In this document: positions 3,073-61,588 of the stretch, in pieces
Layout: the number at the start of each line of letters is the position of its first letter
How positions within the stretch are numbered: position 1 is the stretch's first letter
IMG/VR virus record: IMGVR_UViG_3300006155_000004
DNA: 64,000 bases
Reading direction: 5' to 3' (one strand)
DNA from: a virus
The notes under the pieces: model-generated
What the model was told of the DNA's origin: nothing
The model's input: the letters and a program-made list of their open reading frames with translations, nothing else
Database searches by the model: none
Position numbers and translations under genes: made by a program

Positions 3073-3081
3073 GGAGGGAAA

Positions 3082-4156: not shown

Positions 4157-4174
4157 AAGAAAGGAGAAATGAAT

Positions 4175-4297: not shown

Positions 4298-4389
4298 TGC
4301 CAAGGCCAAAAAAGTTTGAACATGGCGCAGAAATAAGACGCCTGTGCAGCCGGAATATGCGCGGCAGACAACTGGGCGCTTGTTGGTGA
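4297..4389 (+). CDS. 30-codon ORF with a strong RBS, ending at a TGA that is followed by 30 more in-frame sense codons
   Basis: AAAGGAGGA RBS 6 nt before GTG 4297; peptide PRPKKFEHGAEIRRL.. resembles the start of a small HTH protein. Confidence 0.35.
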   Translation: MPRPKKFEHGAEIRRLCSRNMRGRQLGACW

Positions 4390-4698
4390 AACAGAGTTTT
4401 GCCTGAAAATCATCCACAAAACACTGAAAAAATAAGAAAGATTGACAGGTATGCAATTCCAAAGAAAGGATGGAAGTGTTGAATTTAGAAACGGTAACCA
4501 CTCAAGACTGCATTGAGAACTACAAATCCAAAGGCAGAAGCGTCATTTTGAACGACGGAAAACTAATTGGATTTCAGCAAGAAGAAATCCCCACACAGAC
4601 CGAAAATCCAAGTGGGGATAAATAGCCAGATAAGGCTATTACTATGCCTAATTATATGCGGTTATTCGGGGAAAGCCAAGCGAAAGGAAGAAAAACAA

Positions 4699-4890
4699 AT
4701 GAGAAAAAATTTAAAAGAAGCCCGCAACAAGGCGGGCATGACGCAGAAACAGGTTGCAGAGTATTTGGAAATTAGTGAAATTGGTTATAGACAAATTGAA
4801 TCTGGAAAACGGATTGGTTCAATCAAAACATGGGACGCACTAGAGGATTTGTTTAATATTCATCAGCGGAAGTTAAGAGAGAACTTTTAA
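4699..4890 (+). CDS. XRE-family HTH protein
   Basis: MRKNLKEARNKAGMTQKQVAEYLEISEIGYRQIESG; the internal ATG with an RBS is preferred over the ORF-track start 4567. Confidence 0.75.
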   Translation: MRKNLKEARNKAGMTQKQVAEYLEISEIGYRQIESGKRIGSIKTWDALEDLFNIHQRKLRENF

Positions 4891-5089
4891 AATCCTCTAA
4901 ACACATTAAGTCGTCCAAAGAAACATTAAATATCACCGCAAGCTTTAATATTTTTTCTATATTTGGCTCACGCGTTCCTTGTTCGTATTGCCTTATTGTG
5001 ATTGTGGAAACCCCTAGATAATCAGCTATTTCCTTTTGCTTTAAAGGTGATTGCGTGCGTAGTTCGCGTAAACGTTCATTGAATCTCAT
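4853..5089 (-). CDS. XRE-family repressor of the long early operon
   Basis: LKQKEIADYLGVSTITIRQYEQG; divergent from promoter/operators at 5109-5164; its 3' end overlaps ORF 4699..4890 by 38 nt. Confidence 0.85.
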   Translation of the reverse strand: MRFNERLRELRTQSPLKQKEIADYLGVSTITIRQYEQGTREPNIEKILKLAVIFNVSLDDLMCLEDFKSSLLTSADEY

Positions 5090-5108
5090 AAGTACCTCCT
5101 AAAAATAC

Positions 5109-5164
5109 TTGACAGATTCAAAATGAATCGCTATAATGTGATAAAAGCGATTCAAAATGAATCG
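5109..5164 (+). promoter_or_regulatory. early promoter TTGACA-17-TATAAT with two copies of operator GATTCAAAATGAATCG
   Basis: -35 at 5109-5114; -10 at 5132-5137; identical 16-mers at 5115-5130 and 5149-5164. Confidence 0.7.
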
Positions 5165-5222
5165 TAATGTATAAAACGGTATAGTTGATTTTCATTATAC
5201 CACAAATCAGGAGGTATGCACA

Positions 5223-5534
5223 ATGAGCAAGAAAACAACAATCAAGGAAAGGATTACACACATCAAGAGAAAACTTGGATTGGACAAGCAAGAGAACGAG
5301 AAAATACAGAAGATTAAAAAAGATTTCAACGAACGAACCGCAGAAATAGGAGAAGAATGGGATTTATCAGATTTTCTCACGCTCTTAGAATTGTCGGAGT
5401 ACGGTCATTTAGGAAAGTCCAATGCCATCATATTTGCTTTTAAGATTGGCTATATGCAAGGGTATGAGGATTTGAGGGTTAAAACTTTGAATTGGCTCGA
5501 ACAATCATTCGGCGTTAAGGAAACGGAGGGCTAA
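5223..5534 (+). CDS. hypothetical early protein (paralog of 51120..51347)
   Basis: Shared segment ..RTAE..WDL.DFL.LL...EY...GKS.AI..A.KIGY with ORF 51120. Confidence 0.65.
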   Translation: MSKKTTIKERITHIKRKLGLDKQENEKIQKIKKDFNERTAEIGEEWDLSDFLTLLELSEYGHLGKSNAIIFAFKIGYMQGYEDLRVKTLNWLEQSFGVKETEG

Positions 5535-5537: not shown

Positions 5538-5840
5538 ATGGAAGATTGCTTGAAAGCCCTTAGAGAAAGGCTGTATGCAGTGATGGGTAAGAACGACTGG
5601 ACGTTGACAAGGCTTTCAAATGAGTGTGGAGTTTCCTATCGCGAGTTACAGCAAATTCTTTACAAACAAAACAAAGATGTTCGGCTGTCAACCCTTGTAA
5701 GAATATCGGACGGTCTTGGAATACCACTAATTTCACTGGTTGACATGGAGGAAATGCGGAAAGAGGAAAATGCAGAGTTTATCAGAAAATTGTATTCAGA
5801 CATGAAAGAATATTTAAGAAAGAGTGGTGTTGAAATTTGA
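5538..5840 (+). CDS. HTH (XRE-like) DNA-binding protein
   Basis: WTLTRLSNECGVSYRELQQILYKQ HTH-like segment. Confidence 0.6.
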   Translation: MEDCLKALRERLYAVMGKNDWTLTRLSNECGVSYRELQQILYKQNKDVRLSTLVRISDGLGIPLISLVDMEEMRKEENAEFIRKLYSDMKEYLRKSGVEI

Positions 5841-6484
5841 GTGAATTGGTTGAAATTGTTTCAGAGAGAAACGGGAAACCTGTTACTACAAGCCTAAAAG
5901 TTGCGGAAAAATTTGAGAAAGACCATAGGCATGTGCTTGAAAGCATTAGAAATCTCGTAGCCGAAAAGTCGGCCGCCAAATTCTTTAAGGAAACTACCTA
6001 TAAAAACAGAGGAAAGAAATATCCTATGTTTGAAATGGATAGAGATGGTTTTTCTTTGCTCGTCATGGGGTTTAATGGAAAGAAAGCGTTGCAGTGGAAG
6101 TTGGATTACATACAGGCGTTTAACAGCATGGAAAGTTTTATAAAATCTATACAATCCGCCAAAATGGATTATCCAGCACTTACAAAAGCAATCGAGCAGG
6201 CACATGAAGAGCCAAAGTTTTACCATTTTAGTAATGAAATCAACATGATTAACCGTATTGCACTTGGAGCAGACGCAAAGCACTTTAAGGAAGAAAACGG
6301 AATTGATAAGGAAGAAAATTCTATCAGACCATATTTGACGGCGGAACAAATAAAGGCAATCGAGGAATTACAAAGGATAGATATAGGGCTTTTAGTTGCA
6401 AATATTGAATTTGAGAAGAGAAAGCAAATATTGAGGACGCATTATAGTAAAAACACATCAATTACAGAAATGGCGAGGCAATGA
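5837..6484 (+). CDS. Rha-family phage regulatory protein
   Basis: KPVTTSLKVAEKFEKDHRHVLESIRNL is typical of Phage_pRha; its TGA stop is followed by 65 in-frame coding-like codons. Confidence 0.8.
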   Translation: MSELVEIVSERNGKPVTTSLKVAEKFEKDHRHVLESIRNLVAEKSAAKFFKETTYKNRGKKYPMFEMDRDGFSLLVMGFNGKKALQWKLDYIQAFNSMESFIKSIQSAKMDYPALTKAIEQAHEEPKFYHFSNEINMINRIALGADAKHFKEENGIDKEENSIRPYLTAEQIKAIEELQRIDIGLLVANIEFEKRKQILRTHYSKNTSITEMARQ

Positions 6485-6707
6485 AAAAAATATATTGCAT
6501 TAAATGAGTTTGAGAGAAGAATTGCCAATGAGGGTATGGAGTTTAACGAATTTCCAAACAAGAAAGAACTTGAAAAAACAGAAAAAGAGATTGCTGAAAC
6601 TAACGAGGGTTTCAAAAATATAGTATTTGAGTTGGGGTGTTCAGTTTTGGCAAAAGCGTATCTGAAAGCAATAGATTAACTAAATCACAGATCAAAGGAG
6701 AAAACCA

Positions 6708-7346
6708 ATGAATAGAGAAAAGAATGAAAACAACCAAGTTACATTAATCGGAGAAATCGCAAGTAATTTTGAGTTCAGCCATGAGTGCTACGGCGAGGGA
6801 TTTTATACCGCCATGCTTTCGAGCGAGAGGACAAGCGGTCAGAAAGACATTATTCCAATTATGGTATCGGAACGGCTTGTTGATGTGAAAGCAGACTGGA
6901 TAGGTCGGTTTGTAATAGTGAATGGTCAGTTTAGGTCTTATAACAAGCATGATGAAGAAAGAAACCATCTTATTCTTTCGGTATTTGTTAGGGGGTTTAA
7001 GGAAACAGAATTTGAACATGAAGAACCGGGAAGCGGTAATGATGAAAACGACATTTCCCTTGACGGATATATCTGCAAATCGCCAACTTACCGAAAAACA
7101 CCGTTCGGCAGAGAAATCACAGACATTCTTCTTGCGGTCAACCGCTCATACGGAAAATCAGACTACATACCATGTATCGCATGGGGAAGAAATGCGGTAT
7201 ATGCAAGTGGTTTGGAAGTCGGCACAAGGCTACGGATTGAGGGAAGAATCCAGAGCAGGGAATACCAGAAACGCATTTCTGACGATGAATATGAAACACG
7301 AATTGCTTATGAGGTTTCGGTTTCAAAGATGGAAGCGGAGGAATGA
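6708..7346 (+). CDS. tandem OB-fold SSB-like protein (two SSB-type OB domains, no acidic tail)
   Basis: NQVTLIGEI..NGQFRSY and ISLDGYIC..RIEGRIQSREY repeat the SSB OB pattern. Confidence 0.55.
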   Translation: MNREKNENNQVTLIGEIASNFEFSHECYGEGFYTAMLSSERTSGQKDIIPIMVSERLVDVKADWIGRFVIVNGQFRSYNKHDEERNHLILSVFVRGFKETEFEHEEPGSGNDENDISLDGYICKSPTYRKTPFGREITDILLAVNRSYGKSDYIPCIAWGRNAVYASGLEVGTRLRIEGRIQSREYQKRISDDEYETRIAYEVSVSKMEAEE

Positions 7347-7534
7347 TCATGATTTATTTTGCTTATGTAATTGCCTGGATTAGCACATCGGCCGCGGTAA
7401 TTTCTGGAATGTATTTTACAAAGTCTGCATTGTGCCTATGGGCGCTTGTCTTGCCTGCTTGCATTAAATTAACACGCAATGGCGAAGACGACAAAGAAAG
7501 CGAGGAGGCAGAAGATGAACAGAGCAAAGATTGA
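7343..7534 (+). CDS. small membrane protein with an acidic tail
   Basis: Two hydrophobic segments, then DDKESEEAEDEQSKD; ATGA overlap with the upstream gene. Confidence 0.45.
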   Translation: MIMIYFAYVIAWISTSAAVISGMYFTKSALCLWALVLPACIKLTRNGEDDKESEEAEDEQSKD

Positions 7535-7844
7535 AGATGCATTGCTTGCAATGGGAGTTCCGGCAGGAATTAAAGGTTTTACATACATTACGGACGCGAT
7601 ACAGATTTTTGACGAAAGAGGAACAAACATCCGCATGACAAAAGAATTATATCCGACGATCGCAAAGAATAACGGAACAACTCCGTCCATAGTGGAAAGG
7701 TCAATCAGACACGCACTTACAGTAGCAAGAGATTGCAGGGGTAAATATGAAATCATTAATCACTACATAGGATTTGCGAACTGTCAAAATTCAAGTTCCC
7801 TTAAACAGCTCCACATGATGCTGAAAAGGGAGGATTCGGAATGA
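7515..7844 (+). CDS. stand-alone Spo0A C-terminal (DNA-binding) domain protein
   Basis: GVPAGIKGFTYITDAI, LYPTIAKNNGTTPSIVERSIRHAL match the Spo0A_C signature; GAGGAGG RBS before ATG 7515; no receiver domain. Confidence 0.85.
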   Translation: MNRAKIEDALLAMGVPAGIKGFTYITDAIQIFDERGTNIRMTKELYPTIAKNNGTTPSIVERSIRHALTVARDCRGKYEIINHYIGFANCQNSSSLKQLHMMLKREDSE

Positions 7845-33928: not shown

Positions 33929-34484
33929 AGAAGTATCAGAAATGAATATATATGAGTTGGCACACAATTCATGCTATGCAAAGGACGGAAAGGCAAGATA
34001 TAGAGATTTTGAGGATGATTTTGACGCAAGGCAACTGGCAATAAAACTTTTGGAAAAGTATGCGGACATTCCGAATGAGTTTACTGGTGATGAAGATTTT
34101 GATGATTTTATGATGGATTCCTTGCAGTATGGAACAGGAGATATACTTGGATTGATTGCGGTGTTTTATCGGAATCTGTGGGCGATGGCTGATTTAAGGG
34201 AAACATTAAAGCGTTTTGAGGATTTGAAAGAACAAGGGACAATGATTGAACTTCCTTGCAAGGTTGGAGATACATTTTGGACTTTTACGGAGGAATCGAG
34301 AGGTGTATATGACGGAGATGTGGTAGATATCCAAGTTGAAAAAATAGAAATCCGATTTAATGACGGAAAACCATACTTTTATATTGACAACATGGAATTT
34401 GATATTGACTGTTTTGGAAAAACAATTTTTCGCACTAGAGAAGAAGCAGAGAAAAAGATAAAGGAGATTATGAGTAATGGATAA
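33906..34484 (+). CDS. hypothetical protein with the LP.KVGD../GKTIF.TREEAE module
   Basis: MIELPCKVGDTFWTF...FGKTIFRTREEAEKKI. Confidence 0.55.
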   Translation: MNRLTTNKEVSEMNIYELAHNSCYAKDGKARYRDFEDDFDARQLAIKLLEKYADIPNEFTGDEDFDDFMMDSLQYGTGDILGLIAVFYRNLWAMADLRETLKRFEDLKEQGTMIELPCKVGDTFWTFTEESRGVYDGDVVDIQVEKIEIRFNDGKPYFYIDNMEFDIDCFGKTIFRTREEAEKKIKEIMSNG

Positions 34485-34887
34485 AATCACAGTCTACACC
34501 GACGGCTCAGTCCTAAACAATGGTTCTTCTGACAGCGGTTGCGGTTGGGCTTGCAAGCTGATTTACCGAGGGCATGAGAAAATGAAGTCAGGAGGCGATA
34601 AGGGCAAGACAAACAATGTTATGGAGATGACAGCAGTTCTGCAAGCCATGAAATCCATAACGGACAAGTCTATTCCAGCGGAAGTGTTTTCGGACAGTAA
34701 GTATGTGGTGGAAACACTGAATGGGAATTATCAGATTAAGAAGAACGTGAAGTTGTGGCAGGAACTTATGGCGGAGAAAGAGAAGTTTGCAGATATTCGG
34801 TTTATTTGGGTTAAGGGGCATGATAAGAATGTTCATAACAATGATGTTGACAGGCGGGCGGTAGCAGAAGCCAAGAAAGCGAGGTAA
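34477..34887 (+). CDS. rnhA: ribonuclease HI
   Basis: YTDGS, NNVMEMTA, FSDSKY, GHDKNVHNNDVD. Confidence 0.85.
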   Translation: MDKITVYTDGSVLNNGSSDSGCGWACKLIYRGHEKMKSGGDKGKTNNVMEMTAVLQAMKSITDKSIPAEVFSDSKYVVETLNGNYQIKKNVKLWQELMAEKEKFADIRFIWVKGHDKNVHNNDVDRRAVAEAKKAR

Positions 34888-34891
34888 GTAA

Positions 34892-36859
34892 ATGGATTAT
34901 CAGCAATTAGATATATTCGACATGACAAGACAGACATTTCAGATAGACAAGCCTATCCGATTGATTGAACTCTTTGCAGGTGTCGGCAGTCAGGCAATGG
35001 CATTGCGGGATTTGGGAGCGGATTTTGAGCATTACAGAGTGGTTGAGTTTGATAAGTTTGCAGTCGCAAGCTACAATACCATTCACGGTACAAACTTTGA
35101 AACAACGGATATTCGGAATATAAGTGGTGTGGATTTAGGGATTTGCGACACAGGCAAATTCTGCTACATAACGACATATTCATTCCCTTGTTTCGTTGGA
35201 AACACGTTTGTTTTGACTAGAGATGGTTTAAAACAAATTGATGGTATAATTCCTGGCGATTATGTCCTTACTCATTCTAATGAGTATAAAAAGGTTTTGA
35301 AAAGCGGATATACTGGAACGAAAAACATATTTTCCGTGAAAGGTATGTGTATTGATGAAATAAAATGCACAAATAATCACAAATTTTATGCAAGGAAAAT
35401 GATTGGACACTATCCGAGGAATAAAAACGGAAAAAGATTCAGAACAAGAGAATTTTTAAGACCTGAATGGATTGAATGCGAAAGCCTAACAAAAGATTAT
35501 TACTTAGGTGTTGCAACCAACCAAAATAGCGTAATTCCAACTTGGGATGGAACTGATTTTAAATGGTCTGATGGAAGAAAATCAAGGCATAAGAATCAAC
35601 TATCAAAACTCATGGGGAATCATAGTTTTTGGTGGATAATCGGCAGATATTTAGGAGATGGGTGGATTAGAACGCAAGGTGGAGTAATTATATGTTGCTC
35701 AAAAAACGAAACGCATGAAATTCTTCCGCATTTAAGAAATTGCGTTTTTTCCTATTCCATATCAGCGGAAAGAACGGTAAATAAGATACACATAGCAATA
35801 AAGGAATTGCAATGTTTTTGTGAACGATTTGGAAGAGGAGCAAAAGGAAAACGCCTTCCGGGATTTGTTTTTGATATGCCTTGCGAGTTGTTGAAGAGTT
35901 TGATTGATGGCTATGTAAGTTCTGATGGATGTTACACACAAGGGCTGTATAAAATTAGTAGTATTAGCAAGGAACTTGTCTACGGATTTGCTCAATTGGT
36001 TGCAAAAGCATATAAAGTACCATACAGAATATATAAGACAGAAAGACCTAAAAAGTGCAAGATAGAGGGAAGAACAGTAAATCAAAACGACACATATCAG
36101 TTGGTTTGGAAGTTGCAGAAGAAAAAACAAGACAAGGCTTTTTATGAAAAAGGTTATGTATGGTTTCCGATTAAGAGCGTGGAAAATACAAATTCAAAAG
36201 AGAAAGTATACGACATAACGGTTGAAGACTCTCATAGTTTTACTGCAAACGGAGCAATTGTTCACAACTGTCAGGATTTATCAGTCGCCGGAAAGCAAAA
36301 AGGCATGACCAAAGGAAGTGGTACAAGGTCGGGTTTGCTATGGGAAGTAGAACGGTTGCTGAATGAATGCATCGAACTCCCACAAGTCCTGCTGATGGAG
36401 AATGTTCCTGCCGTACATTCACAAGCCAATATACCAGACTTCCAGAAGTGGATTGATTTTCTTGAAAGCAAAGGGTATTCAAACTACTGGAAGGATCTGA
36501 ACGCTAAAGATTATGGTGTGGCGCAAAATCGCGATAGATGCTTTATGGTGAGCTTTTTGGGCGAATGGAATTACAAATTTCCACAGCCGATACCGCTTGA
36601 AAGAAAGTTAAAGGACTATTTAGAAGATGAGGTTGACGAGAAGTATTACATCAATAATGAAAAGTCGCAGAAATTGATACAGACACTTATTGAGAATGGA
36701 ACATTGCAAGGCTGTATTGGGAATATAAATCCAAGCGGAAACGGAATGAACGGAAATGTATATGCGGGAGATTTAAGTCCAACAATTACCACGAATAAAG
36801 GCGATGGCGCAAAGATTTTTGTTGACCTATCCCTAAAAAATCCAAACAAAAAACGATAA
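34892..36859 (+). CDS. DNA (cytosine-5)-methyltransferase, N-terminal/catalytic part (motifs I-VIII), interrupted by an intein
   Basis: ELFAGVGS (I), FP-[intein]-CQDLS (IV), LMENVPAV (VI), QNRDRCF (VIII); ends at a stop right after an A6 run. Confidence 0.85.
   Translation: MDYQQLDIFDMTRQTFQIDKPIRLIELFAGVGSQAMALRDLGADFEHYRVVEFDKFAVASYNTIHGTNFETTDIRNISGVDLGICDTGKFCYITTYSFPCFVGNTFVLTRDGLKQIDGIIPGDYVLTHSNEYKKVLKSGYTGTKNIFSVKGMCIDEIKCTNNHKFYARKMIGHYPRNKNGKRFRTREFLRPEWIECESLTKDYYLGVATNQNSVIPTWDGTDFKWSDGRKSRHKNQLSKLMGNHSFWWIIGRYLGDGWIRTQGGVIICCSKNETHEILPHLRNCVFSYSISAERTVNKIHIAIKELQCFCERFGRGAKGKRLPGFVFDMPCELLKSLIDGYVSSDGCYTQGLYKISSISKELVYGFAQLVAKAYKVPYRIYKTERPKKCKIEGRTVNQNDTYQLVWKLQKKKQDKAFYEKGYVWFPIKSVENTNSKEKVYDITVEDSHSFTANGAIVHNCQDLSVAGKQKGMTKGSGTRSGLLWEVERLLNECIELPQVLLMENVPAVHSQANIPDFQKWIDFLESKGYSNYWKDLNAKDYGVAQNRDRCFMVSFLGEWNYKFPQPIPLERKLKDYLEDEVDEKYYINNEKSQKLIQTLIENGTLQGCIGNINPSGNGMNGNVYAGDLSPTITTNKGDGAKIFVDLSLKNPNKKR
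35189..36268 (+). mobile_element. intein with LAGLIDADG homing-endonuclease domain (360 codons) inserted at the PCQ catalytic cysteine
   Basis: Starts CFVGNTFVLT, has TNNH, WWIIGRYLGDGW, LIDGYVSSDGC, VYDITVEDSHSF, and ends AIVHN followed by C; 1080 nt, in frame. Confidence 0.8.
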
Positions 36860-36929
36860 GCAGCTGTATCACAGCAAGGGAAGATAGGGGAATATCAAAC
36901 CAACAGTCAGTAGGAAAAGGAGTGGTGGA

Positions 36930-37640
36930 ATGTCAAAGGAAATCTTAGGAAGTATTTATTATAAGACGTCAGAGGATTTTATGCGTGGGATTTATCCCAT
37001 GGCAAGAACAGTTAAGGCAGAGCAACGTGATTTGGCGGTGGTGGAAATGGAAGAAAGACGATTAGGAAATATTTACGGCTTTGACGGTGGGAATTACGCA
37101 GGGAATGTGTATGATGATAAGGCTTTATCTCCAACAATACGGACATATCAATGCGGAAATCAACAGCCTATGATTGTTGCCATGCGTGGCAGAAATCCCA
37201 GAAACCCGTCAGACCGTACTGCAGGGAGTCCAACAGAACAGAGGTTAGATACGAACGGTCAAGGTATCTGCAATGCGCTGACGAGCATGCAGAAAGATAA
37301 TATGGTGCTAGTGAAAGCAGATTTTTGCATTGGAGGACTGCAGGAGCATCAAACAGCGAGAATAGACGGCATATCTCCATCTCTAACGGCAGCGATGGGT
37401 ATGGGAGGAGGGCAAACACCTCTGATAAATTGTCAATACCGCATACGAAAACTAACCCCGCTTGAATGTTGGCGGCTTATGGGATTTTCTGATGAAGATT
37501 TTCATAAGGCAGAGGAAGTCAATAGCAATTCGCAACTCTATAAACAGGCAGGGAACAGCATTGTAAACAATGTATTAATTGCGATTTTCGGGCAGATGAT
37601 ACCCAGAAAGGAAAATTTGTACAAAGAATTACAAGACTGA
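36930..37640 (+). CDS. C5-methyltransferase C-terminal part (target-recognition modules plus motifs IX-X), in a different frame from the N-terminal part
   Basis: ALSPTIRT, ISPSLTAAMG TRD-like repeats; RKLTPLECWRLMGF (IX), YKQAGNSIV (X). Confidence 0.8.
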   Translation: MSKEILGSIYYKTSEDFMRGIYPMARTVKAEQRDLAVVEMEERRLGNIYGFDGGNYAGNVYDDKALSPTIRTYQCGNQQPMIVAMRGRNPRNPSDRTAGSPTEQRLDTNGQGICNALTSMQKDNMVLVKADFCIGGLQEHQTARIDGISPSLTAAMGMGGGQTPLINCQYRIRKLTPLECWRLMGFSDEDFHKAEEVNSNSQLYKQAGNSIVNNVLIAIFGQMIPRKENLYKELQD

Positions 37641-37644
37641 ATGA

Positions 37645-38094
37645 TTGGAGGCAAAGAGGTTTTCCCGGGAAATAAAGCTGGCTTTACTCCAAAGGATTAT
37701 GAAAGATTGCAAATACCCAAATTGTGTAGAGTGTGCAAATGATGATTGCGATATGGAACAAAAGGACATAGCGGCGCTGTTAAAACGCAGACGGTGGAAT
37801 GCGAATCCGACAAAATATCGGCAAAAACAGATAGATTACAAGGCAAAAATTAAGGAGAATCTACCGCATTGTGACGAATGCACAGATTGCGTTCTTGTGA
37901 AAAAGGATAAAGGCGATGGTTTCAGAAGACTTTGTATAGCGGAAATGAGATTAGTTGAACAGAAAGTGTCAAATTCTCCGCAATGGTGCAGAAAGCGAGC
38001 GCCGAGCAAAGATTATCTGAAACGCCGTGAAAATATACTAAGGCAGAAGAAAGAAAAATATTGGAAAGAGAGGGCGGGAAATGAGCAGAGTTAA
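37645..38094 (+). CDS. Cys-rich hypothetical protein (start uncertain; ATG 37699 possible)
   Basis: ORF track; CKYPNCVEC.., CDECTDC. Confidence 0.45.
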   Translation: MEAKRFSREIKLALLQRIMKDCKYPNCVECANDDCDMEQKDIAALLKRRRWNANPTKYRQKQIDYKAKIKENLPHCDECTDCVLVKKDKGDGFRRLCIAEMRLVEQKVSNSPQWCRKRAPSKDYLKRRENILRQKKEKYWKERAGNEQS

Positions 38095-38497
38095 CAAATA
38101 CAGAGGAATACACATTCATGCGTATCCGCAAAACGAACACATTAACGGAACATGGATTTATGGGCACTTGTCGGACGAAAACTATATCAATTCGCTAGAC
38201 TTAGAGGGAGAATTTCTAGTTGACAAAGACACTGTCGGGCAGTACATAGGCGTTGACGACAAGAACGGAAAGGAAATCTACGAGGGGGATATTGTCAAAA
38301 GAAAAATGTTTGATGATTATGTAGTTGGACAAGTAGTGCGGCTTGATATAGGCTTCTGCGGTTTTATGCTAAAATGTGGAAACAGATATTATCATATGGG
38401 AAAAAGCGAACACACGGGAATATCCGATTGCGATGAAGTTATCGGAAATGTGTATGAAAATGCGGATTTGTTGAAGGAGGTTGAAATAAGTGAGTGA
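38081..38497 (+). CDS. YopX-family protein
   Basis: TVGQYIGVDDKNGKEIYEGDIV ... IGNVYENADLL. Confidence 0.75.
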   Translation: MSRVNKYRGIHIHAYPQNEHINGTWIYGHLSDENYINSLDLEGEFLVDKDTVGQYIGVDDKNGKEIYEGDIVKRKMFDDYVVGQVVRLDIGFCGFMLKCGNRYYHMGKSEHTGISDCDEVIGNVYENADLLKEVEISE

Positions 38498-39854: not shown

Positions 39855-39883
39855 TTGAGTTTTGAGCCTTTTTATGGTAAAAT
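39855..39883 (+). promoter_or_regulatory. promoter TTGAGT-17-TAAAAT with TG extension, upstream of int
   Basis: -35 at 39855-39860; TGGTAAAAT at 39875-39883. Confidence 0.45.
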
Positions 39884-39933
39884 ATAAACTATATCAAGGC
39901 TCTTTTCCTAAACAAAAGAAAGGAGATTTGTCA

Positions 39934-41124
39934 ATGGGAAAAGATTTGAAAGGAAAGGAGTTGGGTGTTGGGTTAATCCAACGCAAAGACGGGCTGTATC
40001 AGGCGAGATATTCTAACAGATGGGGAAAGAGAAAAACTATCTATGGGAAGAATCTGCGAGAACTGAGAAAAGAGCTTGCGGAGGCTATTGCGGGAAACGA
40101 GAACTTTGCAAGCACAAAATACGAAATAACGCTTGATAAGTGGTTTGACAGATGGATGGAGGTTTATAAAGAGAAAAGTATAAGACCAAACACCAAGAGA
40201 GAATATACGCACATATACAAGAAAAATATTTCTCCGTACATAGGAGAAAGAAACATCAATTCTCTTGTCAAATCCGATATTCAAAGAATTATTGATAGGG
40301 CAAGTGACGACAGTTATGCTTATGAGCGGCAGAATAAAATCAAAGTGATTCTTCGAGATATGCTGCAGAGGGCAGTTGAAGATAATCTTGTTGTCAACAA
40401 TCCCGTGAGCGGTATAAAACTTAGGGCAGATAAGGAAATCAAGGCAAAATCATTGACAGTTGAAGAACAATCATTATTCTTTGATTATTGCCGCAACACA
40501 TTTTATGATAACCTTTTCAACGTGGCGGTTAATACGGGATTACGGCCGGGCGAGCTATTTGCCTTGCAATTTTCGGACATAGATCTTGATAATGGGCTTA
40601 TAGACGTAAACAAAACGCTTGTTTACCAAAAATATCTTGATGATGAATGTAAAACGTTTCATGTCGAACCGCCAAAAACTAAGAAAAGCTACAGAAAAGT
40701 GCCAATCAACAGCGTTTGCAGAAAGTTTTTAGAAAGTCAATTAGAATTGAAATCAGTCGTATCGCAGAAAAGACCAAAACAACAGAATGACTACGTATTT
40801 GTGACAAAGTTTAATACGCCTCTTAACTCTGTTATTTATTCGGATGCGATAAAAGCCGTAATTCGCCAGATAAACCTAGCAAGGCCGTTTGATAATCAGT
40901 TTGAGGTATTCAGCGGACATACATTCCGGCACACATTTGCTACTAGGTGCTTCGAGAGTGGGGTGGACGCAAAAGTGGTGCAAAGCTATCTTGGTCATGC
41001 AAGCCTTAAAATGACAATGGATTTATATACACATGTCACAGAGGAAAAATCAATGAAAGACATAGAAAAAATTGTTCCGGGGATCGAAAACAAGGTCGTG
41101 AACATAAGGAGAAAAATGGCTTAA
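39934..41124 (+). CDS. int: tyrosine recombinase / phage integrase
   Basis: LRPGELFAL.., HTFRHTFAT, LGHASLKMTMDLYTHV; ATG with an AAAGGAG RBS preferred over the track start. Confidence 0.9.
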   Translation: MGKDLKGKELGVGLIQRKDGLYQARYSNRWGKRKTIYGKNLRELRKELAEAIAGNENFASTKYEITLDKWFDRWMEVYKEKSIRPNTKREYTHIYKKNISPYIGERNINSLVKSDIQRIIDRASDDSYAYERQNKIKVILRDMLQRAVEDNLVVNNPVSGIKLRADKEIKAKSLTVEEQSLFFDYCRNTFYDNLFNVAVNTGLRPGELFALQFSDIDLDNGLIDVNKTLVYQKYLDDECKTFHVEPPKTKKSYRKVPINSVCRKFLESQLELKSVVSQKRPKQQNDYVFVTKFNTPLNSVIYSDAIKAVIRQINLARPFDNQFEVFSGHTFRHTFATRCFESGVDAKVVQSYLGHASLKMTMDLYTHVTEEKSMKDIEKIVPGIENKVVNIRRKMA

Positions 41125-42678: not shown

Positions 42679-42778
42679 GACGAAACCTCCATTTTTAATA
42701 AACAGTATAATACTTTTGCAAGTATGTTGCAATACTTTATAAAGTATGCTATAATGAAAATAAATGGAGGTGTTGAAA

Positions 42779-43753
42779 ATGGCAGATTTAAATTGCTTGT
42801 GGGGAATATACTACGATATGATAAAAAGATGTTATGATAAAAATTATTTTTTATACAAAAGTTATGGAGAAATCGGAGTAACCGTTTGCCCTGAATGGTT
42901 AAATAATAGAAGTAGTTTTAACGAATGGGCAAATTTGAAAAATTACAAAAAGGGAATGCGCTTAAAATTGCGTGAAAAAGAAGTTGGATATTTTCCGAGT
43001 AATTGCTATTTTAGTAACAAAAGAGAAAGAAAGTTAAAAGAAAATAAACAAAAAGAAGGCAGTAAAACATACAGAAGTGATAAATTCAAAAGTATTTTAG
43101 GCGTTGAAAAATATATAGATAGTCCTATATACATATCTTATTATGCAATGATTGATAGATGTTGTAATCCGAAGAACAAGTCCTATAAATGGTATGGCGC
43201 AAAAGGCATAAAAGTATGTGATGAATGGACAGAAGATATAATCGGATTTGAAAGATTTTCTGTTTGGTCTTTAGGGAATGGGTGGAGAAAAGGTCTTACA
43301 ATAGACAGAATAAATGCGGATAAAGATTATTGCCCAGAAAATTGTAGGTGGATAACTATACAAGAACAGCAGATAAACAAATCAAATTCTTTAAATTTTA
43401 TGTATAGTGGTCAGATTAGAAATTTATCGGAAATAGCGAAAGAAAATAATTTGTGTTATTCAAATTTGTATAGGAAAATAATGTATGATAATTATTCTGT
43501 TGAAGATGCGATAAATTATTTAAAAAGAAGAAGAAAAGGAAAGAAAAATAGCATGTACCATTCAAAACAAGTTGCGCAAATAGATAGTAATGGAGAAATA
43601 GCAAAAGTTTTTCCAAGCGCAAAATCAGCGGCTGATTCCTACGGAAAATCTTCTGGAAGCTTAACAAAGGCTTGTAGAAACGGGACAACATGGTTGGGGA
43701 AAAGATGGAAATATATAACCGAAGATGAATATGACGAATTTTTAAAAAAGTAG
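42779..43753 (+). CDS. HNH_3/AP2-like DNA-binding protein (two tandem modules, first degenerate) with a NUMOD1-like C-terminus
   Basis: RCCNPKNKSYKWYGAKGIKVCDEW, LTIDRINADKDYCPENCRW; C-terminal VAQIDSNGEIAKVFPSAKSAADSYG. Confidence 0.65.
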   Translation: MADLNCLWGIYYDMIKRCYDKNYFLYKSYGEIGVTVCPEWLNNRSSFNEWANLKNYKKGMRLKLREKEVGYFPSNCYFSNKRERKLKENKQKEGSKTYRSDKFKSILGVEKYIDSPIYISYYAMIDRCCNPKNKSYKWYGAKGIKVCDEWTEDIIGFERFSVWSLGNGWRKGLTIDRINADKDYCPENCRWITIQEQQINKSNSLNFMYSGQIRNLSEIAKENNLCYSNLYRKIMYDNYSVEDAINYLKRRRKGKKNSMYHSKQVAQIDSNGEIAKVFPSAKSAADSYGKSSGSLTKACRNGTTWLGKRWKYITEDEYDEFLKK

Positions 43754-48304: not shown

Positions 48305-48639
48305 AGCGTTACCGCCCTGAACAAGTGATAAACGCTCTACACCGAGGTTTCCCTCTGATAAATACAATCATATCACAGCGGAGACCTCTTTTCAAGATAT
48401 TTTTACAAAAGATGAACCCACGCTCATGGGAGAAAGAGGTACATAATAAGAAGAAAAATAATGATAATGCTTTACGCGCTCTCTTCAATCATTGATGACA
48501 TTGCATATTTCGTTGTCGGAAATTGCGAGGATTTTCAATGCGAGATTAAAACTCATTGGAGAGAACATTCTATCGGTTAGTATGTTTTCTGCTGATTTGG
48601 GGAGTGGCTACCGCTCCCTTTTGTGATATGGAGGTATTT

Positions 48640-49620
48640 ATGGAAAAGCCAACGCTTAATTGGAGATGTAAAGATATATCTGGGTATAGGAAAGGAACGA
48701 TAACTGTAAAAAATCCAACCGATAGCAGAAGTAAGAACGGATCTATAATATGGGAATGCGAGTGTGAGTGCGGAAACAAGGTTTATTTAACAAAACAACA
48801 AATAGAGAAAAATCCTTATTGTGGAAAACGCAATAAAACATATAATTTTATAGATTTTAAAGACAAACAAATAGGTGTTCTTCATGTTATCGAATATACA
48901 GGAGATTCAAAATGGTTATGCGAATGTGAGTGTGGAAATCGGAAAATTGTTCATAGGTCTGTTTTGCGAAAAGGAGCAACATATGCTTGCTCATGCAATC
49001 ACAAACTTCATAAATCCGATTGCAATACAACGCATGGAAAGAGCAATACAAGGCTTTATCATGTTTGGTGCGGAATGAAAAACAGATGTTACAATAAAAA
49101 TTTAGATGAATATCACAGATATGGCGGCAGAGGAATAACAATCTGCCCTGAATGGCTGGGGAAGAACGGCTTTCAGAATTTTTGTAAATGGGCATATGCG
49201 AATGGGTACGACGAAAATGCAAAGCGTGGAGATTGTACAATAGACAGAATTAACAATGATGGAAATTATGAACCGTCAAATTGCCGGTGGGCTACATATA
49301 TTGAACAAGCCAATAATAGGAGTGACAATCATTTAATAGAGATAAGTGGGGTTGTTAAAGGAATTAAGGATTGGTGCGATGAATACGGAATAAAAATCGG
49401 AACGTATAAAACGAGAGTTCGCAGAGGAACGGACGATGTTTCTGCTATTACTACGCCAATAAGAAAATTCAGCAAAGATTTAACCGAAAAAGAGAGAAAA
49501 GAAAGAAAACAAAAGAGACTTGAAAGAATTAAAAAATGGCAGGAAGAAAACAAAGATAAAGTTAAAGAATATCAAAGAAAAAGCGAGGAAAAGAAAAAAT
49601 CAGAAAAGAAAGCCGATTAG
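48640..49620 (+). CDS. HNH_3/AP2-like DNA-binding protein with two N-terminal zinc-ribbon modules and a Lys/Glu-rich tail
   Basis: WECECECGN.. x2; RCYNKNLDEYHRYGGRGITICPEW; CTIDRINNDGNYEPSNCRW. Confidence 0.65.
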   Translation: MEKPTLNWRCKDISGYRKGTITVKNPTDSRSKNGSIIWECECECGNKVYLTKQQIEKNPYCGKRNKTYNFIDFKDKQIGVLHVIEYTGDSKWLCECECGNRKIVHRSVLRKGATYACSCNHKLHKSDCNTTHGKSNTRLYHVWCGMKNRCYNKNLDEYHRYGGRGITICPEWLGKNGFQNFCKWAYANGYDENAKRGDCTIDRINNDGNYEPSNCRWATYIEQANNRSDNHLIEISGVVKGIKDWCDEYGIKIGTYKTRVRRGTDDVSAITTPIRKFSKDLTEKERKERKQKRLERIKKWQEENKDKVKEYQRKSEEKKKSEKKAD

Positions 49621-59637: not shown

Positions 59638-59641
59638 TTTT

Positions 59642-59713
59642 AGGGCTATCGCCAAACGGTAAGGCACAGCGCTTTGACTGCTGTATTTCCGGGTTCGAGT
59701 CCTGGTAGCCCTG
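59642..59713 (+). tRNA. tRNA-Gln (anticodon UUG)
   Basis: Acceptor AGGGCTA/TAGCCCT, anticodon loop CTTTGAC, T-arm CCGGG-TTCGAGT-CCTGG; no encoded CCA. Confidence 0.85.
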
Positions 59714-59792
59714 TTGCCGCGACTTGCGCCGGAGTTGCGCGGGAATAAAGTTAATGGGTCGCGGTATTAAATCTGAAAGCGAGGGAGTTTTG

Positions 59793-59942
59793 ATGATTAT
59801 TGCCATCTTTGGGATAATTGTTTTTCAACTCGTGGAACGGATTGCCATAGTCGAGAAATCCTCAACAGAGGTTTTGAGGAAATGCATCTGTATGTTAGGG
59901 TTTTCATACAATGCAATTCCGGCAAGGCATGAAGTCCCGTGA
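59793..59942 (+). CDS. possible small membrane protein (49 aa)
   Basis: GAGGGAG RBS; hydrophobic MIIAIFGIIVFQLV. Confidence 0.3.
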   Translation: MIIAIFGIIVFQLVERIAIVEKSSTEVLRKCICMLGFSYNAIPARHEVP

Positions 59943-60118
59943 AAGCCATATCTGCAAGAAGATAATCCGCAAAATGCTGAAAAGCCAGTATTGATTATTA
60001 AAAATTATAATTGAGATAATGAACCAACAAAACTATCAAACATTGCGGATATGGCGGATTTAAGAAAATATATAAACTTATCGGCGGCGGCTTGTTGGTC
60101 TCGTTGCCGCCGGTTTAT

Positions 60119-60191
60119 GCGGGCATAGCTCAATCGGAAGAGCACTGGACTCCAAAACCAGAAGTCGTAGGTTCGACCCCCTCTGCCCGTG
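60119..60191 (+). tRNA. tRNA-Trp-like (anticodon CCA) with A31:A39 and two T-stem mismatches
   Basis: Acceptor GCGGGCA/TGCCCGT (G1:U72), D-arm GCTC..GAGC, loop CTCCAAA; T-stem GTAGG/CCCTC pairs only 3 of 5. Confidence 0.6.
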
Positions 60192-60244
60192 CTTAGTATC
60201 AAATATTTGTATTATTCGATATCTCCTTTTAACCCCGTAGTGGA

Positions 60245-60601
60245 ATGCTGTTAAGAGCCATCGCACGGCTTGCGGGGATTCGGTGGAGCGACCACCATTA
60301 TAAAAACAATCCGTGTAAAAATGTCACAAGTCTTGCAGGCAGGATGTCTAATGCCGAGGGGAAACTTGGAAAGATAATTTTCGGTTCATTTGTTGGAGAT
60401 CCAGGAGGGAAAAACTATATTGAACTGCCAATAAAGAGTGCGGACGTTTTTAGCAACAATATACTAGCGATCAATGGTGATTTTGTTGTGTATGGCGGCT
60501 TCGTTATTGGTTTCAACTTCTACAAAGAAAATGTCGTGTGTATATTATCTGCTGCGAGAAGCGGGGCCATAAGGATCAATTATATATATTTCCATGTTTA
60601 G
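60245..60601 (+). CDS. hypothetical beta-rich protein (start uncertain; ATG 60344 possible)
   Basis: ORF track. Confidence 0.4.
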   Translation: MLLRAIARLAGIRWSDHHYKNNPCKNVTSLAGRMSNAEGKLGKIIFGSFVGDPGGKNYIELPIKSADVFSNNILAINGDFVVYGGFVIGFNFYKENVVCILSAARSGAIRINYIYFHV

Positions 60602-60672
60602 GCGCGTCAGTTGAAAGATAAGTGAAATGGTTTGTGTGGCGGGGAGGAACCCGCAAAAGGGAGGATATGGGA

Positions 60673-60855
60673 ATGGCGAGCACGACAAGAAAACCAATTC
60701 CAAGGAAGTATGAAGAGTGCCTAAATTGCCCGAACGATATTCCTGGTTATGGAAAGTGTAAGATAAAGTTTGACAATTTTTATTATCGGAGAGGGAAAAA
60801 TAATCGTTGTTTCCATTGTCAAGAGGAAATCAGAAAATTGAAATTAGGATTCTAA
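60673..60855 (+). CDS. small Cys4 zinc-ribbon protein
   Basis: GGGAGG RBS 8 nt upstream; CLNCP...CFHC. Confidence 0.45.
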   Translation: MASTTRKPIPRKYEECLNCPNDIPGYGKCKIKFDNFYYRRGKNNRCFHCQEEIRKLKLGF

Positions 60856-60963
60856 AATCCATTTTAAGCCATTTTAACCCCACGCCCTATAATTTCATCA
60901 CCGAAACACAAAAGAGGGCGTTTTGGGGCAAATAGGAGCGTTAGAGAGGTATCAAAACAATAA

Positions 60964-61046
60964 GGGAAGTTATACAGTAGGGGCAGCGGGGCAGTCTGTA
61001 AAACTGTTATCTTTGGATTCGGGCGGTTCGACTCCGCCACTTCCCA
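60964..61046 (+). tRNA. tRNA-Tyr-like (anticodon GUA, long variable arm) with an unpaired D-stem
   Basis: Perfect acceptor GGGAAGT/ACTTCCC and T-arm GGCGG-TTCGACT-CCGCC, loop CTGTAAA, variable arm ATC-TTTG-GAT; no D-stem complementarity found. Confidence 0.6.
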
Positions 61047-61164
61047 TTTTGATAATACTTGCCATTATCAAATCAAGCACAGCATGAGCCTTTAGGGTAT
61101 AGTGCGGTAGTCTGATAAACTATGTGGGGAATGGGAGGCAAGTTTCCAAACCCCATGCTTGTAT

Positions 61165-61236
61165 GGTGTCATAGCCAAGTGGATAAGGCAACAGACTGCA
61201 ACTCTGTTATCGAGGGTTCAAATCCCTCTGACATCT
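61165..61236 (+). tRNA. tRNA-Cys (anticodon GCA)
   Basis: Acceptor GGTGTCA/TGACATC, D-arm GCC..GGC, loop CTGCAAC, T-arm GAGGG-TTCAAAT-CCCTC. Confidence 0.8.
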
Positions 61237-61409
61237 CTTTTTATAAAAACCTGTCGGTCAAGCCTATATGGTGAGCAAAAATAGAGAATCAGTAAAGCCT
61301 TAAATGACCGTAAAACCCGTGATAGCCCCGGACACGCAAGGGATTAGTTTCCCGGATACGGAAATCGTCACGAATTGCCGCATAGTTGTGAAAGGTCTAT
61401 GCGGAATAT

Positions 61410-61483
61410 GCGGGAGTACCCAAGTGGTGATTGGATGCGTCTTATACACGTCAACGCCGCAGGTTCGATTCCTGCTTCCCGTA
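61410..61483 (+). tRNA. tRNA-like element, anticodon-loop CTTATAC (UAU, Ile-like); non-canonical (extra nucleotide before the D-stem, G:U at both acceptor ends)
   Basis: T-arm GCAGG-TTCGATT-CCTGC perfect; D-arm CCAA-GTGGTGA-TTGG; anticodon stem only 4 bp. Confidence 0.35.
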
Positions 61484-61588
61484 CTTAACAGCGGAATAGC
61501 CCGACGGGGCAAAAAGTGGCAAACTCCACAAGCCGCCTGTCCGTTGTTTAACAAAATTGTGGAGAGAAAAGCATAGTGGAGGTGCGAT

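What the first reader, a model, noticed from the sequence alone, without database searches (positions are those of the whole stretch)
35189..36268. LAGLIDADG intein inserted exactly at the catalytic Cys of the C5-methyltransferase PCQ motif
ORF 34892..36859 reads ...TTYSFP, then a 360-codon insert, then CQDLSVAGKQKG... Excising 35189-36268 (1080 nt, in frame) restores the canonical motif IV F-P-C-Q. The insert carries the intein blocks: Cys1 (CFVGNTFVLT), TNNH, two LAGLIDADG-type motifs (WWIIGRYLGDGW, LIDGYVSSDGC), VYDITVEDSHSF, and a terminal HN followed by Cys+1. The +1 splicing nucleophile would be the methyltransferase active-site cysteine, so methylase activity would depend strictly on splicing.
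Basis: partly seen in the sequence, partly recalled or inferred. Interest (0 to 1): 0.7.

Follow-up and report, generated by a model that had tools for sequence, protein, structure and literature searches.

The report
Homing intein inside phage cytosine methyltransferase
A phage DNA cytosine-methyltransferase gene is interrupted, exactly in front of its catalytic cysteine, by a 360-codon self-splicing protein element (an intein carrying a homing endonuclease); it is a genuine but fairly ordinary new member of a widespread, mostly unannotated intein family that always sits at this site.

Summary
ORF 34892-36859 reads ...TTYSFP, then a 360-codon insert (35189-36268), then CQDLSVAGK. An intein-free ortholog (L001, about 85-90% nt identity) lacks exactly these 1080 nt. 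The insert passes the curated cut-offs for the intein splicing domain and the intein C-terminal region. It models at pLDDT 95.9 and matches TliVMA, PI-SceI and PI-PfuI inteins. It keeps Cys1, TxxH, both LAGLIDADG aspartates, block F, His-Asn and Cys+1. Splicing itself is inferred, not shown. The thing is not new in kind. I found 139 protein clusters, 191 IMG/VR viral contigs and 31 species genomes carrying relatives. Nearly all sit at the same P|C...N|C site, including some P1-like phage Dmt genes and phages Nyseid, B22, A4 and 587AP2. A 2025 actinophage survey already lists C-5 methylases as intein hosts. The closest exteins (92-93% identity) are intein-free, while the closest intein is only 69% identical, which fits horizontal homing. 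The host gene is a two-ORF methyltransferase. Here it also carries a 1-nt A-run deletion that truncates the N-terminal subunit.

The parts
34892..35188 (+). N-extein: the first 99 codons of the C5-methyltransferase N-terminal subunit (motif I FAGVGSQ ... up to TTYSFP, the first half of motif IV).
   Evidence: PF00145. It is 92-93% identical at protein level to the intein-free orthologs P0121 and P0127.
35189..36268 (+). Intein, 360 codons: a class 1 splicing (HINT) domain split by a double-motif LAGLIDADG homing-endonuclease domain.
   Evidence: Pfam PF14890 scores 48.8 bits against a 35.8 cut-off, and TIGR01443 scores 33.9 against 15.6. The AF2 model has pLDDT 95.9. The best Foldseek matches are the TliVMA intein (E 4.6e-19, TM 0.70), PI-SceI, PI-PfuI and PI-TkoII. 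The intein-free ortholog L001 lacks exactly these bases. GC is 0.349 against 0.41 in the exteins.
35189..35227 (+). Block A (CFVGNTFVLTRDG), with Cys1 at 35189-35191.
   Evidence: Cys1 is invariant in 65/65 family members, and Gly13 is also invariant.
35360..35395 (+). Block B (IKCTNNHKFYAR), with Thr61 and His64 of the TxxH motif.
   Evidence: T61 and H64 are invariant in 65/65. They are also invariant in the 13-sequence alignment that reaches down to 28% identity.
35627..35665 (+). First LAGLIDADG motif (FWWIIGRYLGDGW), with the presumed catalytic Asp157.
   Evidence: G152 and G158 are invariant and D157 is kept in 64/65. The endonuclease core matches I-DmoI and I-Tsp061I in Foldseek.
35888..35932 (+). 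Second LAGLIDADG motif (LLKSLIDGYVSSDGC), with the presumed catalytic Asp246.
   Evidence: G241 and G247 are invariant and D246 is kept in 62/65. Pfam LAGLIDADG_3 scores 22.2 bits at residues 237-292.
36206..36268 (+). Blocks F and G (VYDITVEDSHSF ... ANGAIVHN), ending in His359-Asn360.
   Evidence: H359 and N360 are invariant in 65/65. TIGR01443 matches residues 339-360.
36269..36271 (+). Cys+1: the first C-extein residue, which is the catalytic cysteine of motif IV (P-C-Q).
   Evidence: It is invariant in the alignment. It is present in 77 of 78 IMG/VR loci. In the intein-free orthologs the sequence reads TYSFPCQDLS.
36269..36859 (+). C-extein: the rest of the methyltransferase N-terminal subunit (motif IV QDLSVAG, motif VI ENV, motif VIII QNRDR, and the start of the target-recognition region). 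It ends at a premature stop.
   Evidence: and the alignment to L001.
36848..36853 (+). A6 run. The orthologs L001 and P0121 have A7. The missing base puts a stop at 36857-36859 and cuts about 30 conserved residues off the N-terminal subunit.
   Evidence: The same A6 form occurs in the independent contig L120.
36853..36948 (+). Continuation in the -1 frame (TISSCITAREDRGISNQQSVGKGVVECQRKS*), identical to the C-terminus of the intein-free ortholog P0121. It is orphaned in this window.
36930..37640 (+). Methyltransferase C-terminal subunit ORF (target-recognition modules, motif IX RKLTPLECWRLMGF, motif X QAGNSI), preceded by the AAAGGAG ribosome-binding site.
   Evidence: PF00145 profile positions 264-322 match with E 1.6e-10. 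The same two-ORF layout is seen in L001, L119 and L120. Fused versions are P0161 and P0213. The RBS is shown.

Best explanation
Bases 35189-36268 encode a canonical class 1 intein with an embedded double-motif LAGLIDADG homing endonuclease. It is inserted in frame between Pro and Cys of catalytic motif IV (F-P-C-Q) of the N-terminal subunit of a phage C5 DNA cytosine methyltransferase. The inferred mechanism runs as follows. The gene is translated as a 655-residue precursor whose catalytic loop is interrupted. Cys1 performs an N-to-S acyl shift at the Pro(-1)-Cys1 bond. Cys+1 attacks that thioester, forming a branched intermediate. Asn360, assisted by His359, cyclises and releases the intein. 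An S-to-N shift then rebuilds a native F-P-C-Q loop, in which the former splicing nucleophile becomes the cysteine that attacks cytosine C6. The released 360-residue protein probably acts as a homing endonuclease. It would cut intein-free alleles at the motif IV coding sequence during co-infection or prophage encounter, so that repair copies the intein in. What is shown here is the precise insertion, the family membership, the conservation of all catalytic residues, the fold, and the patchy distribution against intein-free near-identical exteins. Splicing, cleavage and methylation are inferred.
For: Precise insertion: the 1080-nt in-frame insertion is absent from the intein-free ortholog L001, and orthologs read TYSFPCQDLS.

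Family scores: Pfam Intein_splicing and TIGR01443 both score above their curated cut-offs.

Relatives: all 139 homologs of the intein lie in PF00145 proteins. The same P|C...HN|C(Q/T) junction is found in about 110 of the 120 listed proteins, in 78/78 full-length IMG/VR loci, 77 of them uninterrupted, and in most genome loci.

Conserved residues: Cys1, T61, H64, G152/D157/G158, G241/D246/G247, H359, N360 and Cys+1 are invariant or nearly so across 65 members down to 39% identity, and across phage P1-like, Nyseid and Mannheimia relatives at 28-33% identity.

Fold: the AF2 model has pLDDT 95.9 and pTM 0.93. The top Foldseek hits are endonuclease-containing inteins: TliVMA (E 4.6e-19, TM 0.70), PI-SceI, PhoVMA, PI-PfuI and PI-TkoII. 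The endonuclease core matches I-DmoI.

Horizontal origin: the nearest exteins (92-93% identity) are intein-free, while the best extein identity among intein-bearing homologs is 75% and the best intein identity is 69%. The intein's GC is 0.349 against 0.41 in the flanks.

No RNA intron: there is no Rfam match in 34000-38200.
Against: No experiment exists, so splicing competence is inferred from residues only. The host gene in this window has a 1-nt deletion in an A-run that truncates the N-terminal subunit. The methyltransferase may therefore be non-functional here, or may depend on frameshifting, which would remove selection for splicing. The -1 residue is Pro. From my memory of engineered intein systems this is unfavourable for the first step, but it is invariant in this family, which argues the family is adapted to it. 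LAGLIDADG_3 scores 0.3 bits below Pfam's cut-off. No donor intein closer than 69% identity was found, so recent homing is not demonstrated.
Confidence: 0.9

Rival explanations
1. The insert is a decaying relic in a dead gene. It is of intein origin, but the methyltransferase in this genome is a pseudogene because of the A-run frameshift, so neither splicing nor methylation matters any more.
For: A 1-nt deletion (A6 against A7) truncates the N-terminal subunit relative to L001 and P0121. The closest intein relative (P0003 on L005) sits in a gene broken by a (TTAC)6 repeat.
Against: The intein ORF is intact over 360 codons and keeps every catalytic residue. The orphaned -1 frame segment is still open and identical to P0121, so the change is very recent, reversible, or a sequencing error. 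The same A6 form recurs in an independent sample (L120), and many database proteins have lengths of 294-300 aa. This suggests a tolerated or regulated length variant rather than decay.
Confidence: 0.15
2. The insert is a non-excised Hint/LAGLIDADG domain: a permanent insertion domain or bacterial intein-like (BIL) module with some other role, not a splicing intein.
For: There are weak sub-threshold matches to Hint_2 and PT-HINT. No splicing data exist.
Against: The insertion breaks the catalytic P-C dipeptide of motif IV, which could not function if the insert were retained. Near-identical orthologs lack the insert entirely. The full class 1 residue set, including the terminal HN and Cys+1, is invariant. 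From my own knowledge, BIL domains typically lack an endonuclease and do not sit in conserved motifs of enzymes.
Confidence: 0.03
3. The insert is an in-frame group I or II intron, or a free-standing homing-endonuclease gene that only mimics an intein, as with the ShiLan insertion in actinophage methylases (PMC9957025, PMC11855218).
For: Such in-frame insertions in phage methylase genes have been described.
Against: There is no Rfam match at E<=1 in 34000-38200 on either strand. The ends of the insert encode the two lobes of a HINT fold modelled at pLDDT above 95. The junction residues are the intein nucleophiles.
Confidence: 0.02
4. The junction was created by an assembly artefact or chimera.
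For: None specific. The A-run length could be a homopolymer error.
Against: The same architecture and junctions are seen in hundreds of independent assemblies and in isolate phage genomes.
Confidence: 0.01

Closest known systems
Endonuclease-containing class 1 inteins with solved structures: TliVMA (7qsu), PI-SceI (1vde, 1lws), PI-PfuI (1dq3), PI-TkoII (2cw7)
   Same: They share the bipartite architecture: a HINT splicing domain interrupted by a double-motif LAGLIDADG endonuclease. They also share the Cys1 / TxxH / HN / Cys+1 chemistry. Foldseek gives E 4.6e-19 to 5e-10 and TM up to 0.70. phmmer against 7qsu gives E 3e-5.
   Different: Sequence identity is only 13-19%. The host protein is different (V-ATPase, RNR or polymerase, against a DNA methyltransferase here). 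This intein is smaller than PI-SceI, at 360 against 454 residues.
Unannotated inteins at the same motif IV site of C5-methyltransferases in isolate phages: P1-like Dmt (OP279344, RCS47, Ro157c2YLVW), Lactobacillus phage Nyseid, Propionibacterium phage B22, Escherichia phage A4, Mannheimia phage 587AP2
   Same: The insertion point is identical (..P|CF...VHN|CQ..). The domain order and conserved residues are the same. P7 lacks the P1-type intein exactly, and the spliced product matches P7 at 648/673 residues.
   Different: They are 27-34% identical to the window's intein. The records annotate the genes simply as methyltransferases or hypothetical proteins.
C-5 DNA methylase inteins listed in the actinobacteriophage intein survey (bioRxiv 10.1101/2025.01.02.630785)
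   Same: The host protein class is the same (IPR001525). The survey lists it among hosts 'previously reported as containing inteins'. Phage B22, an actinophage, has the same site.
   Different: The text I could read does not give the insertion site or note that Cys+1 is the catalytic cysteine. The hosts are Actinobacteria, whereas the relatives of this window come mostly from gut and rumen assemblies (Hadza gut, water buffalo, horse faeces).
Mycobacteriophage inteins in N6_N4 DNA methylases (DNMT-1/2; PMC5050341, PMC9957025)
   Same: These are also inteins in phage DNA-modification enzymes, with patchy distribution and horizontal transfer between divergent methylases.
   Different: The methyltransferase superfamily is different (PF01555, no catalytic cysteine), and the insertion sites are different.
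Two-subunit C5-methyltransferases (M.AquI type; NCBIfam NF045953 'N-terminal subunit') and multispecific Bacillus phage methyltransferases (SPR, phi3T), recalled from my own knowledge
   Same: The host enzyme is split after motif VIII into an N-terminal ORF and a C-terminal ORF carrying tandem target-recognition modules. There is a weak NF045953 match, and the same layout is seen in L001, L119 and L120.
   Different: The NF045953 score is far below its cut-off (22 against 93). Fused single-chain relatives also exist (P0161, P0213). Target specificity is unknown.

Membership tests
Class 1 intein | The N-terminal residue is Cys or Ser (block A nucleophile). | tested here: met
   Cys1 lies at 35189-35191 and is invariant in 65/65 relatives.
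Class 1 intein | A block B TxxH motif is present. | tested here: met
   TNNH lies at 35369-35380, and T61 and H64 are invariant.
Class 1 intein | The C-terminus is His-Asn (block G), followed by a Cys, Ser or Thr +1 nucleophile. | tested here: met
   HN lies at 36263-36268 and Cys+1 at 36269-36271. TIGR01443 scores 33.9 bits against a 15.6 cut-off.
Class 1 intein | The splicing domain has a HINT fold. | tested here: met
   The AF2 model has pLDDT 95.9. Foldseek matches solved inteins with E down to 4.6e-19. PF14890 scores above its gathering threshold.
Class 1 intein | The insertion is precise and in frame in a conserved host protein, with intein-free orthologs. | tested here: met
   L001, P0121 and P0127 lack exactly the 360 codons.
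Class 1 intein | The protein splices autocatalytically, giving ligated exteins and a free intein. | not testable with these tools
   This needs expression followed by SDS-PAGE and mass spectrometry.
Class 3 intein | A WCT triplet is present and there is no N-terminal nucleophile. | tested here: not met
   Cys1 is present and invariant, and block F reads VYDITVEDSHSF with no block F Cys. The element is therefore not class 3.
LAGLIDADG homing endonuclease (double-motif, monomeric) | There are two LAGLIDADG helices, each ending in a conserved acidic residue. | tested here: met
   The motifs are GRYLGDGW (D157) and IDGYVSSDGC (D246). D is kept in 64/65 and 62/65 relatives. Foldseek matches I-DmoI and I-Tsp061I. 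Pfam LAGLIDADG_3 scores 22.2 bits, 0.3 below its cut-off.
LAGLIDADG homing endonuclease (double-motif, monomeric) | The enzyme cleaves the intein-free allele site-specifically. | not testable with these tools
   The only evidence is indirect: a patchy distribution and intein-free near-identical exteins.
C5 DNA cytosine methyltransferase (PF00145) | Motifs I (FxGxG), IV (PCQ), VI (ENV), VIII (QxRxR), IX and X are present. | tested here: met
   PF00145 matches with E 2.3e-39 in ORF1 and 1.6e-10 in ORF2. FAGVGS, FP|CQ (after removal of the intein), ENV, QNRDR, RKLTPLECWRLMGF and QAGNSI are all read directly from the translations.
C5 DNA cytosine methyltransferase (PF00145) | The reading frame is intact and contiguous or properly coupled, giving a complete enzyme. 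| tested here: inconclusive
   The two-ORF layout is conserved in relatives. In this window, however, an A6-for-A7 change truncates ORF1 and orphans 31 conserved codons.
Bacterial intein-like (BIL) domain | There is no endonuclease, the domain sits in variable regions of non-conserved proteins, and it often lacks a +1 nucleophile (from my own knowledge). | tested here: not met
   An endonuclease domain is present, the insertion sits in the most conserved motif, and Cys+1 is invariant.

The most novel reading that the evidence does not exclude
The intein may be more than a neutral parasite. It may be a conditional post-translational switch for the phage methyltransferase. Cys1 and Cys+1 flank an invariant, normally splice-unfavourable Pro(-1), and Cys+1 is the enzyme's own nucleophile. 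Splicing could therefore be gated, for example by a reversible Cys1-Cys+1 disulfide, by redox state or by DNA binding, as proposed for the SufB and RadA inteins. Self-methylation of phage DNA would then be timed or restricted to certain host states. The strict conservation of this one site across at least five bacterial phyla, P1-like phages included, could partly reflect such a benefit.
Probability: 0.08. Interest if true: 0.7.

Novelty: new member of a known kind. Interest (0 to 1): 0.35.

Why it matters
For annotation: hundreds of phage and prophage 'DNA cytosine methyltransferase' genes of about 600 residues, including the Dmt genes of some P1-like phages, contain an unannotated intein. 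Their mature products are about 360 residues shorter than annotated.

For intein biology: Novikova et al. [quoted passage not shown] This is an example in which the +1 splicing nucleophile is itself the host enzyme's catalytic nucleophile, and it comes with an invariant Pro at -1. It also offers a large natural series of orthologous inteins (28-69% identity) and intein-free alleles at 90-93% identity that could be used for homing and splicing studies or as new splicing tools.

For phage biology: the intein marks the methyltransferase gene as a target of selfish-element traffic between gut phages.

None of this changes current concepts.

Tried and rejected
- A megablast of 34400-38200 against GenBank phages found nothing, so the window has no close sequenced isolate relative.
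- I looked for an RNA intron explanation with an Rfam scan at E<=1 and found no match.
- I looked for a second, uninterrupted motif IV (PCQ-type) elsewhere in the window that could serve as a homing target in cis. A six-frame regex found none.
- Eight full-text literature searches found no paper describing an intein at the PCQ cysteine of a C5-methyltransferase. The only mention of C-5 methylases as intein hosts is in the 2025 actinophage survey. The library holds open-access papers only, so absence there is not proof.
- I considered a programmed -1 frameshift at the A6 run. In the related contig L120 a -1 shift would fuse all parts into one full-length enzyme. In this window it would only restore the 325-residue N-terminal subunit. 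I could not distinguish slippage, phase variation and sequencing error.
- I did not attempt dN/dS on the endonuclease domain, because the nearest DNA relative is too diverged (65% aa identity).
Full report
**Observation.** ORF 34892-36859 (+) encodes 655 residues. Residues 1-99 end in ...TTYSFP. Residues 100-459 (35189-36268, 1080 nt) run from CFVGNTFVLT to ANGAIVHN. Residue 460 onward reads CQDLSVAGKQKG. The finding's coordinates are exact.

**Is it an intein?**
- The insert alone scores 48.8 bits on Pfam Intein_splicing (gathering cut-off 35.8) and 33.9 bits on TIGR01443 intein_Cterm (cut-off 15.6). It has near-threshold LAGLIDADG_3 (22.2 against 22.5) and sub-threshold Hint_2 and intein_Nterm matches.
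- An AlphaFold2 model built on a 65-sequence alignment has mean pLDDT 95.9 and pTM 0.93.
- Foldseek against the PDB returns only endonuclease-bearing inteins at the top: TliVMA 7qsu (E 4.6e-19, TM 0.70), PI-SceI, PhoVMA, PI-PfuI and PI-TkoII. These are followed by the free-standing LAGLIDADG enzymes I-Tsp061I and I-DmoI, which match the central domain.
- Across 65 family members (39-67% identity) the following are invariant or nearly so: Cys1, Gly13, Thr61 and His64 (TxxH), Gly152/Asp157/Gly158, Gly241/Asp246/Gly247, His359 and Asn360. The same residues, plus Pro(-1) and Cys+1, stay invariant when phage P1-like, Nyseid and Mannheimia relatives at 28-33% identity are added.
- This is the full residue set of a class 1 intein with an apparently intact double-motif LAGLIDADG endonuclease.
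- No Rfam family matches 34000-38200 at E<=1, so an RNA intron is not indicated.

**Is the insertion precise, and where?**
- A search with the conceptually spliced extein finds intein-free orthologs at up to 93% identity (P0121, P0127, P0122, P0123). They read ...MTYSFPCQDLSVAGKQKG.
- At the DNA level, the window with 35189-36268 removed aligns colinearly with the P0123 contig L001. The junction is TTCCCT|TGTCAGGAT.
- The host is a PF00145 C5-methyltransferase (E 2.3e-39). The split dipeptide P|C belongs to motif IV. By established knowledge of the family (M.HhaI Cys81), that cysteine is the nucleophile that attacks cytosine C6.
- By intein convention the first Cys is excised with the intein. 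The second Cys, at +1, is the trans-thioesterification nucleophile and stays in the enzyme. Splicing itself is untested.

**How common is it?**
- All 139 database homologs of the intein (best 69% identity) lie in PF00145 proteins. Junction parsing shows the same (F/S/T)P|C(F/L/V)...HN|C(Q/T) site in essentially all complete sequences.
- IMG/VR holds 191 viral contigs with relatives. Of the 78 full-length loci examined, all have the same site, and 77 have an uninterrupted intein frame.
- Species-representative genomes add 31 loci from Clostridia, Bacillaceae, Treponema, Bacteroidales, Mollicutes, Gracilibacteria and Proteobacteria.
- tblastn against GenBank phages shows more distant relatives (27-34% identity) at the same site. 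They occur in Dmt of some P1-like phages (OP279344, RCS47, Ro157c2YLVW), Lactobacillus phage Nyseid, Propionibacterium phage B22, Escherichia phage A4 and Mannheimia phage 587AP2.
- Phage P7 lacks the P1-type intein exactly. The spliced product matches the P7 protein at 648 of 673 residues.
- None of these records annotates an intein.

**Literature.**
- Inteins in phage DNA methylases are documented for N6_N4 enzymes of mycobacteriophages (PMC5050341, PMC9957025).
- A 2025 actinophage survey lists C-5 methylases (IPR001525) among hosts 'previously reported as containing inteins'.
- I found no open-access paper that describes the motif IV site or the identity of Cys+1 with the catalytic cysteine.
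[quoted passage not shown] This makes the site noteworthy but not unprecedented in principle.

**Evolutionary reading.**
- The best extein identity among intein-bearing homologs is 75%, whereas intein-free homologs reach 92-93%.
- The nearest intein is only 69% identical.
- The intein's GC content is 0.349 against 0.41 in both exteins.
- This is the classic signature of an element that moves independently of its host gene, by homing or by loss from close relatives. The conserved endonuclease residues suggest that the endonuclease is, or recently was, active.

**Host gene and context.**
- The methyltransferase is not a single ORF. Motifs I-VIII lie in 34892-36859. Tandem target-recognition modules plus motifs IX-X lie in 36930-37640, behind an AAAGGAG ribosome-binding site. 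The same two-ORF layout occurs in L001, L119 and L120, while P0161 and P0213 are fused.
- Relative to L001 and P0121, the window has A6 instead of A7 at 36848-36853. This creates a stop at 36857 and orphans a 31-codon segment (36853-36948) that is still identical to the P0121 C-terminus.
- The A6 form recurs in an independent contig (L120), where a -1 shift would produce a fused full-length enzyme. Whether this is a homopolymer error, phase variation or programmed slippage is unresolved. It is the main reason for caution about methyltransferase function in this particular genome.
- The surrounding window looks like a phage replication and recombination module on the + strand. It holds an SbcC-like protein, RecT, a D5-type helicase, a DnaD-like protein, RNase H, YopX paralogs, HNH endonucleases, AntA and a tRNA cluster.

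**Verdict.** The element is a canonical class 1 LAGLIDADG intein and a new, fairly divergent member of a large but poorly annotated family dedicated to motif IV of C5-methyltransferases. It is a new member of a known kind. Interest is moderate to low, at 0.35.

Noticed in passing
window 36848-36948: The A6 run is A7 in the orthologs L001 and P0121. The change truncates the methyltransferase N-terminal subunit, and the -1 frame still encodes the conserved TISSCITAREDRGISNQQSVGKGVVECQRKS tail. The same A6 variant occurs in the independent contig L120, where a -1 shift would fuse the N-terminal part, the middle segment and the C-terminal part into one full-length enzyme. A second variable run, GGAA(A)TGG, sets the frame of the C-terminal ORF. 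This could be phase variation, programmed slippage or a homopolymer sequencing error.
   Followed up: partly
window 34892-37640; L001 3450-5128; L119 2501-3990; L120 2501-4092: The C5-methyltransferase is organised as two ORFs, overlapping or adjacent: motifs I-VIII in the first, and target-recognition modules plus motifs IX-X in the second. Single-chain fused relatives of about 510 aa exist (P0161, P0213). Most intein-bearing relatives of about 600 aa also end before the target-recognition region.
   Followed up: partly
L005 5953-5976 (contig of P0003, the closest intein relative): A (TTAC)6 tetranucleotide repeat immediately upstream of the SFP|C junction shifts the frame, so the gene is called as two ORFs (5568-6035 and 6001-7755). 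The P0003 protein was found on 13 contigs, and the three loci retrieved (L005-L007) show the same two-ORF split. This looks like a phase-variable simple-sequence repeat in a phage methyltransferase.
   Followed up: partly
L002 (OP279344, phage P1 isolate) 2270-5311; L123 (P7) 201-2219: Some P1-like phages (a laboratory P1 del-res del-mod isolate, RCS47, Ro157c2YLVW) carry a 341-residue unannotated intein at GGTP|C...HN|CQAFS in the C5 domain of Dmt. P7 lacks exactly the intein-sized segment at this site. The reference P1 (NC_005856) and SJ46 also lack the intein-sized stretch, but they matched in three pieces and I did not inspect the site in them.
   Followed up: yes
L107 2001-3008; L109-L113: Distant relatives of this intein (24-29% identity) sit at other junctions. 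One lies directly after motif VI (..WENV|C...HN|CGAFS) in a Lachnospiraceae MAG. Several proteobacterial ones lie in an ..LSPD|C...HN|CKHFSKAKGG context. These may be cases of site or extein switching.
   Followed up: no
window 42764-43753 and 48556-49620: Two paralogous HNH endonuclease ORFs (phrog_374 and phrog_3377, E down to 1e-66) lie about 6 kb apart, downstream of a tyrosine-integrase-like ORF (39862-41124). Three YopX-domain ORFs are also present (38081, 38924, 46054). The region appears rich in selfish endonuclease genes.
   Followed up: no
window 59641-61484: A cluster of five tRNA genes (Gln-TTG, Trp-CCA, Tyr-GTA, Cys-GCA, Ile-TAT) lies on the + strand, consistent with a large phage genome.
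   Followed up: no
window 35189-36268 and the whole family: The -1 residue is Pro in every member examined at the motif IV site (65/65 proteins, 78/78 IMG/VR loci). From my memory of engineered intein systems, Pro at -1 is strongly unfavourable for the first splicing step, so this family may have an unusual tolerance for it.
   Followed up: no
L108 (Gracilibacteria MAG): The intein frame shows 24 'stops' under translation table 11. Gracilibacteria are known to read UGA as Gly (code 25), which could account for them, but I did not check which codons they are. If so, the intein family also occurs in an alternative-code lineage.
   Followed up: no
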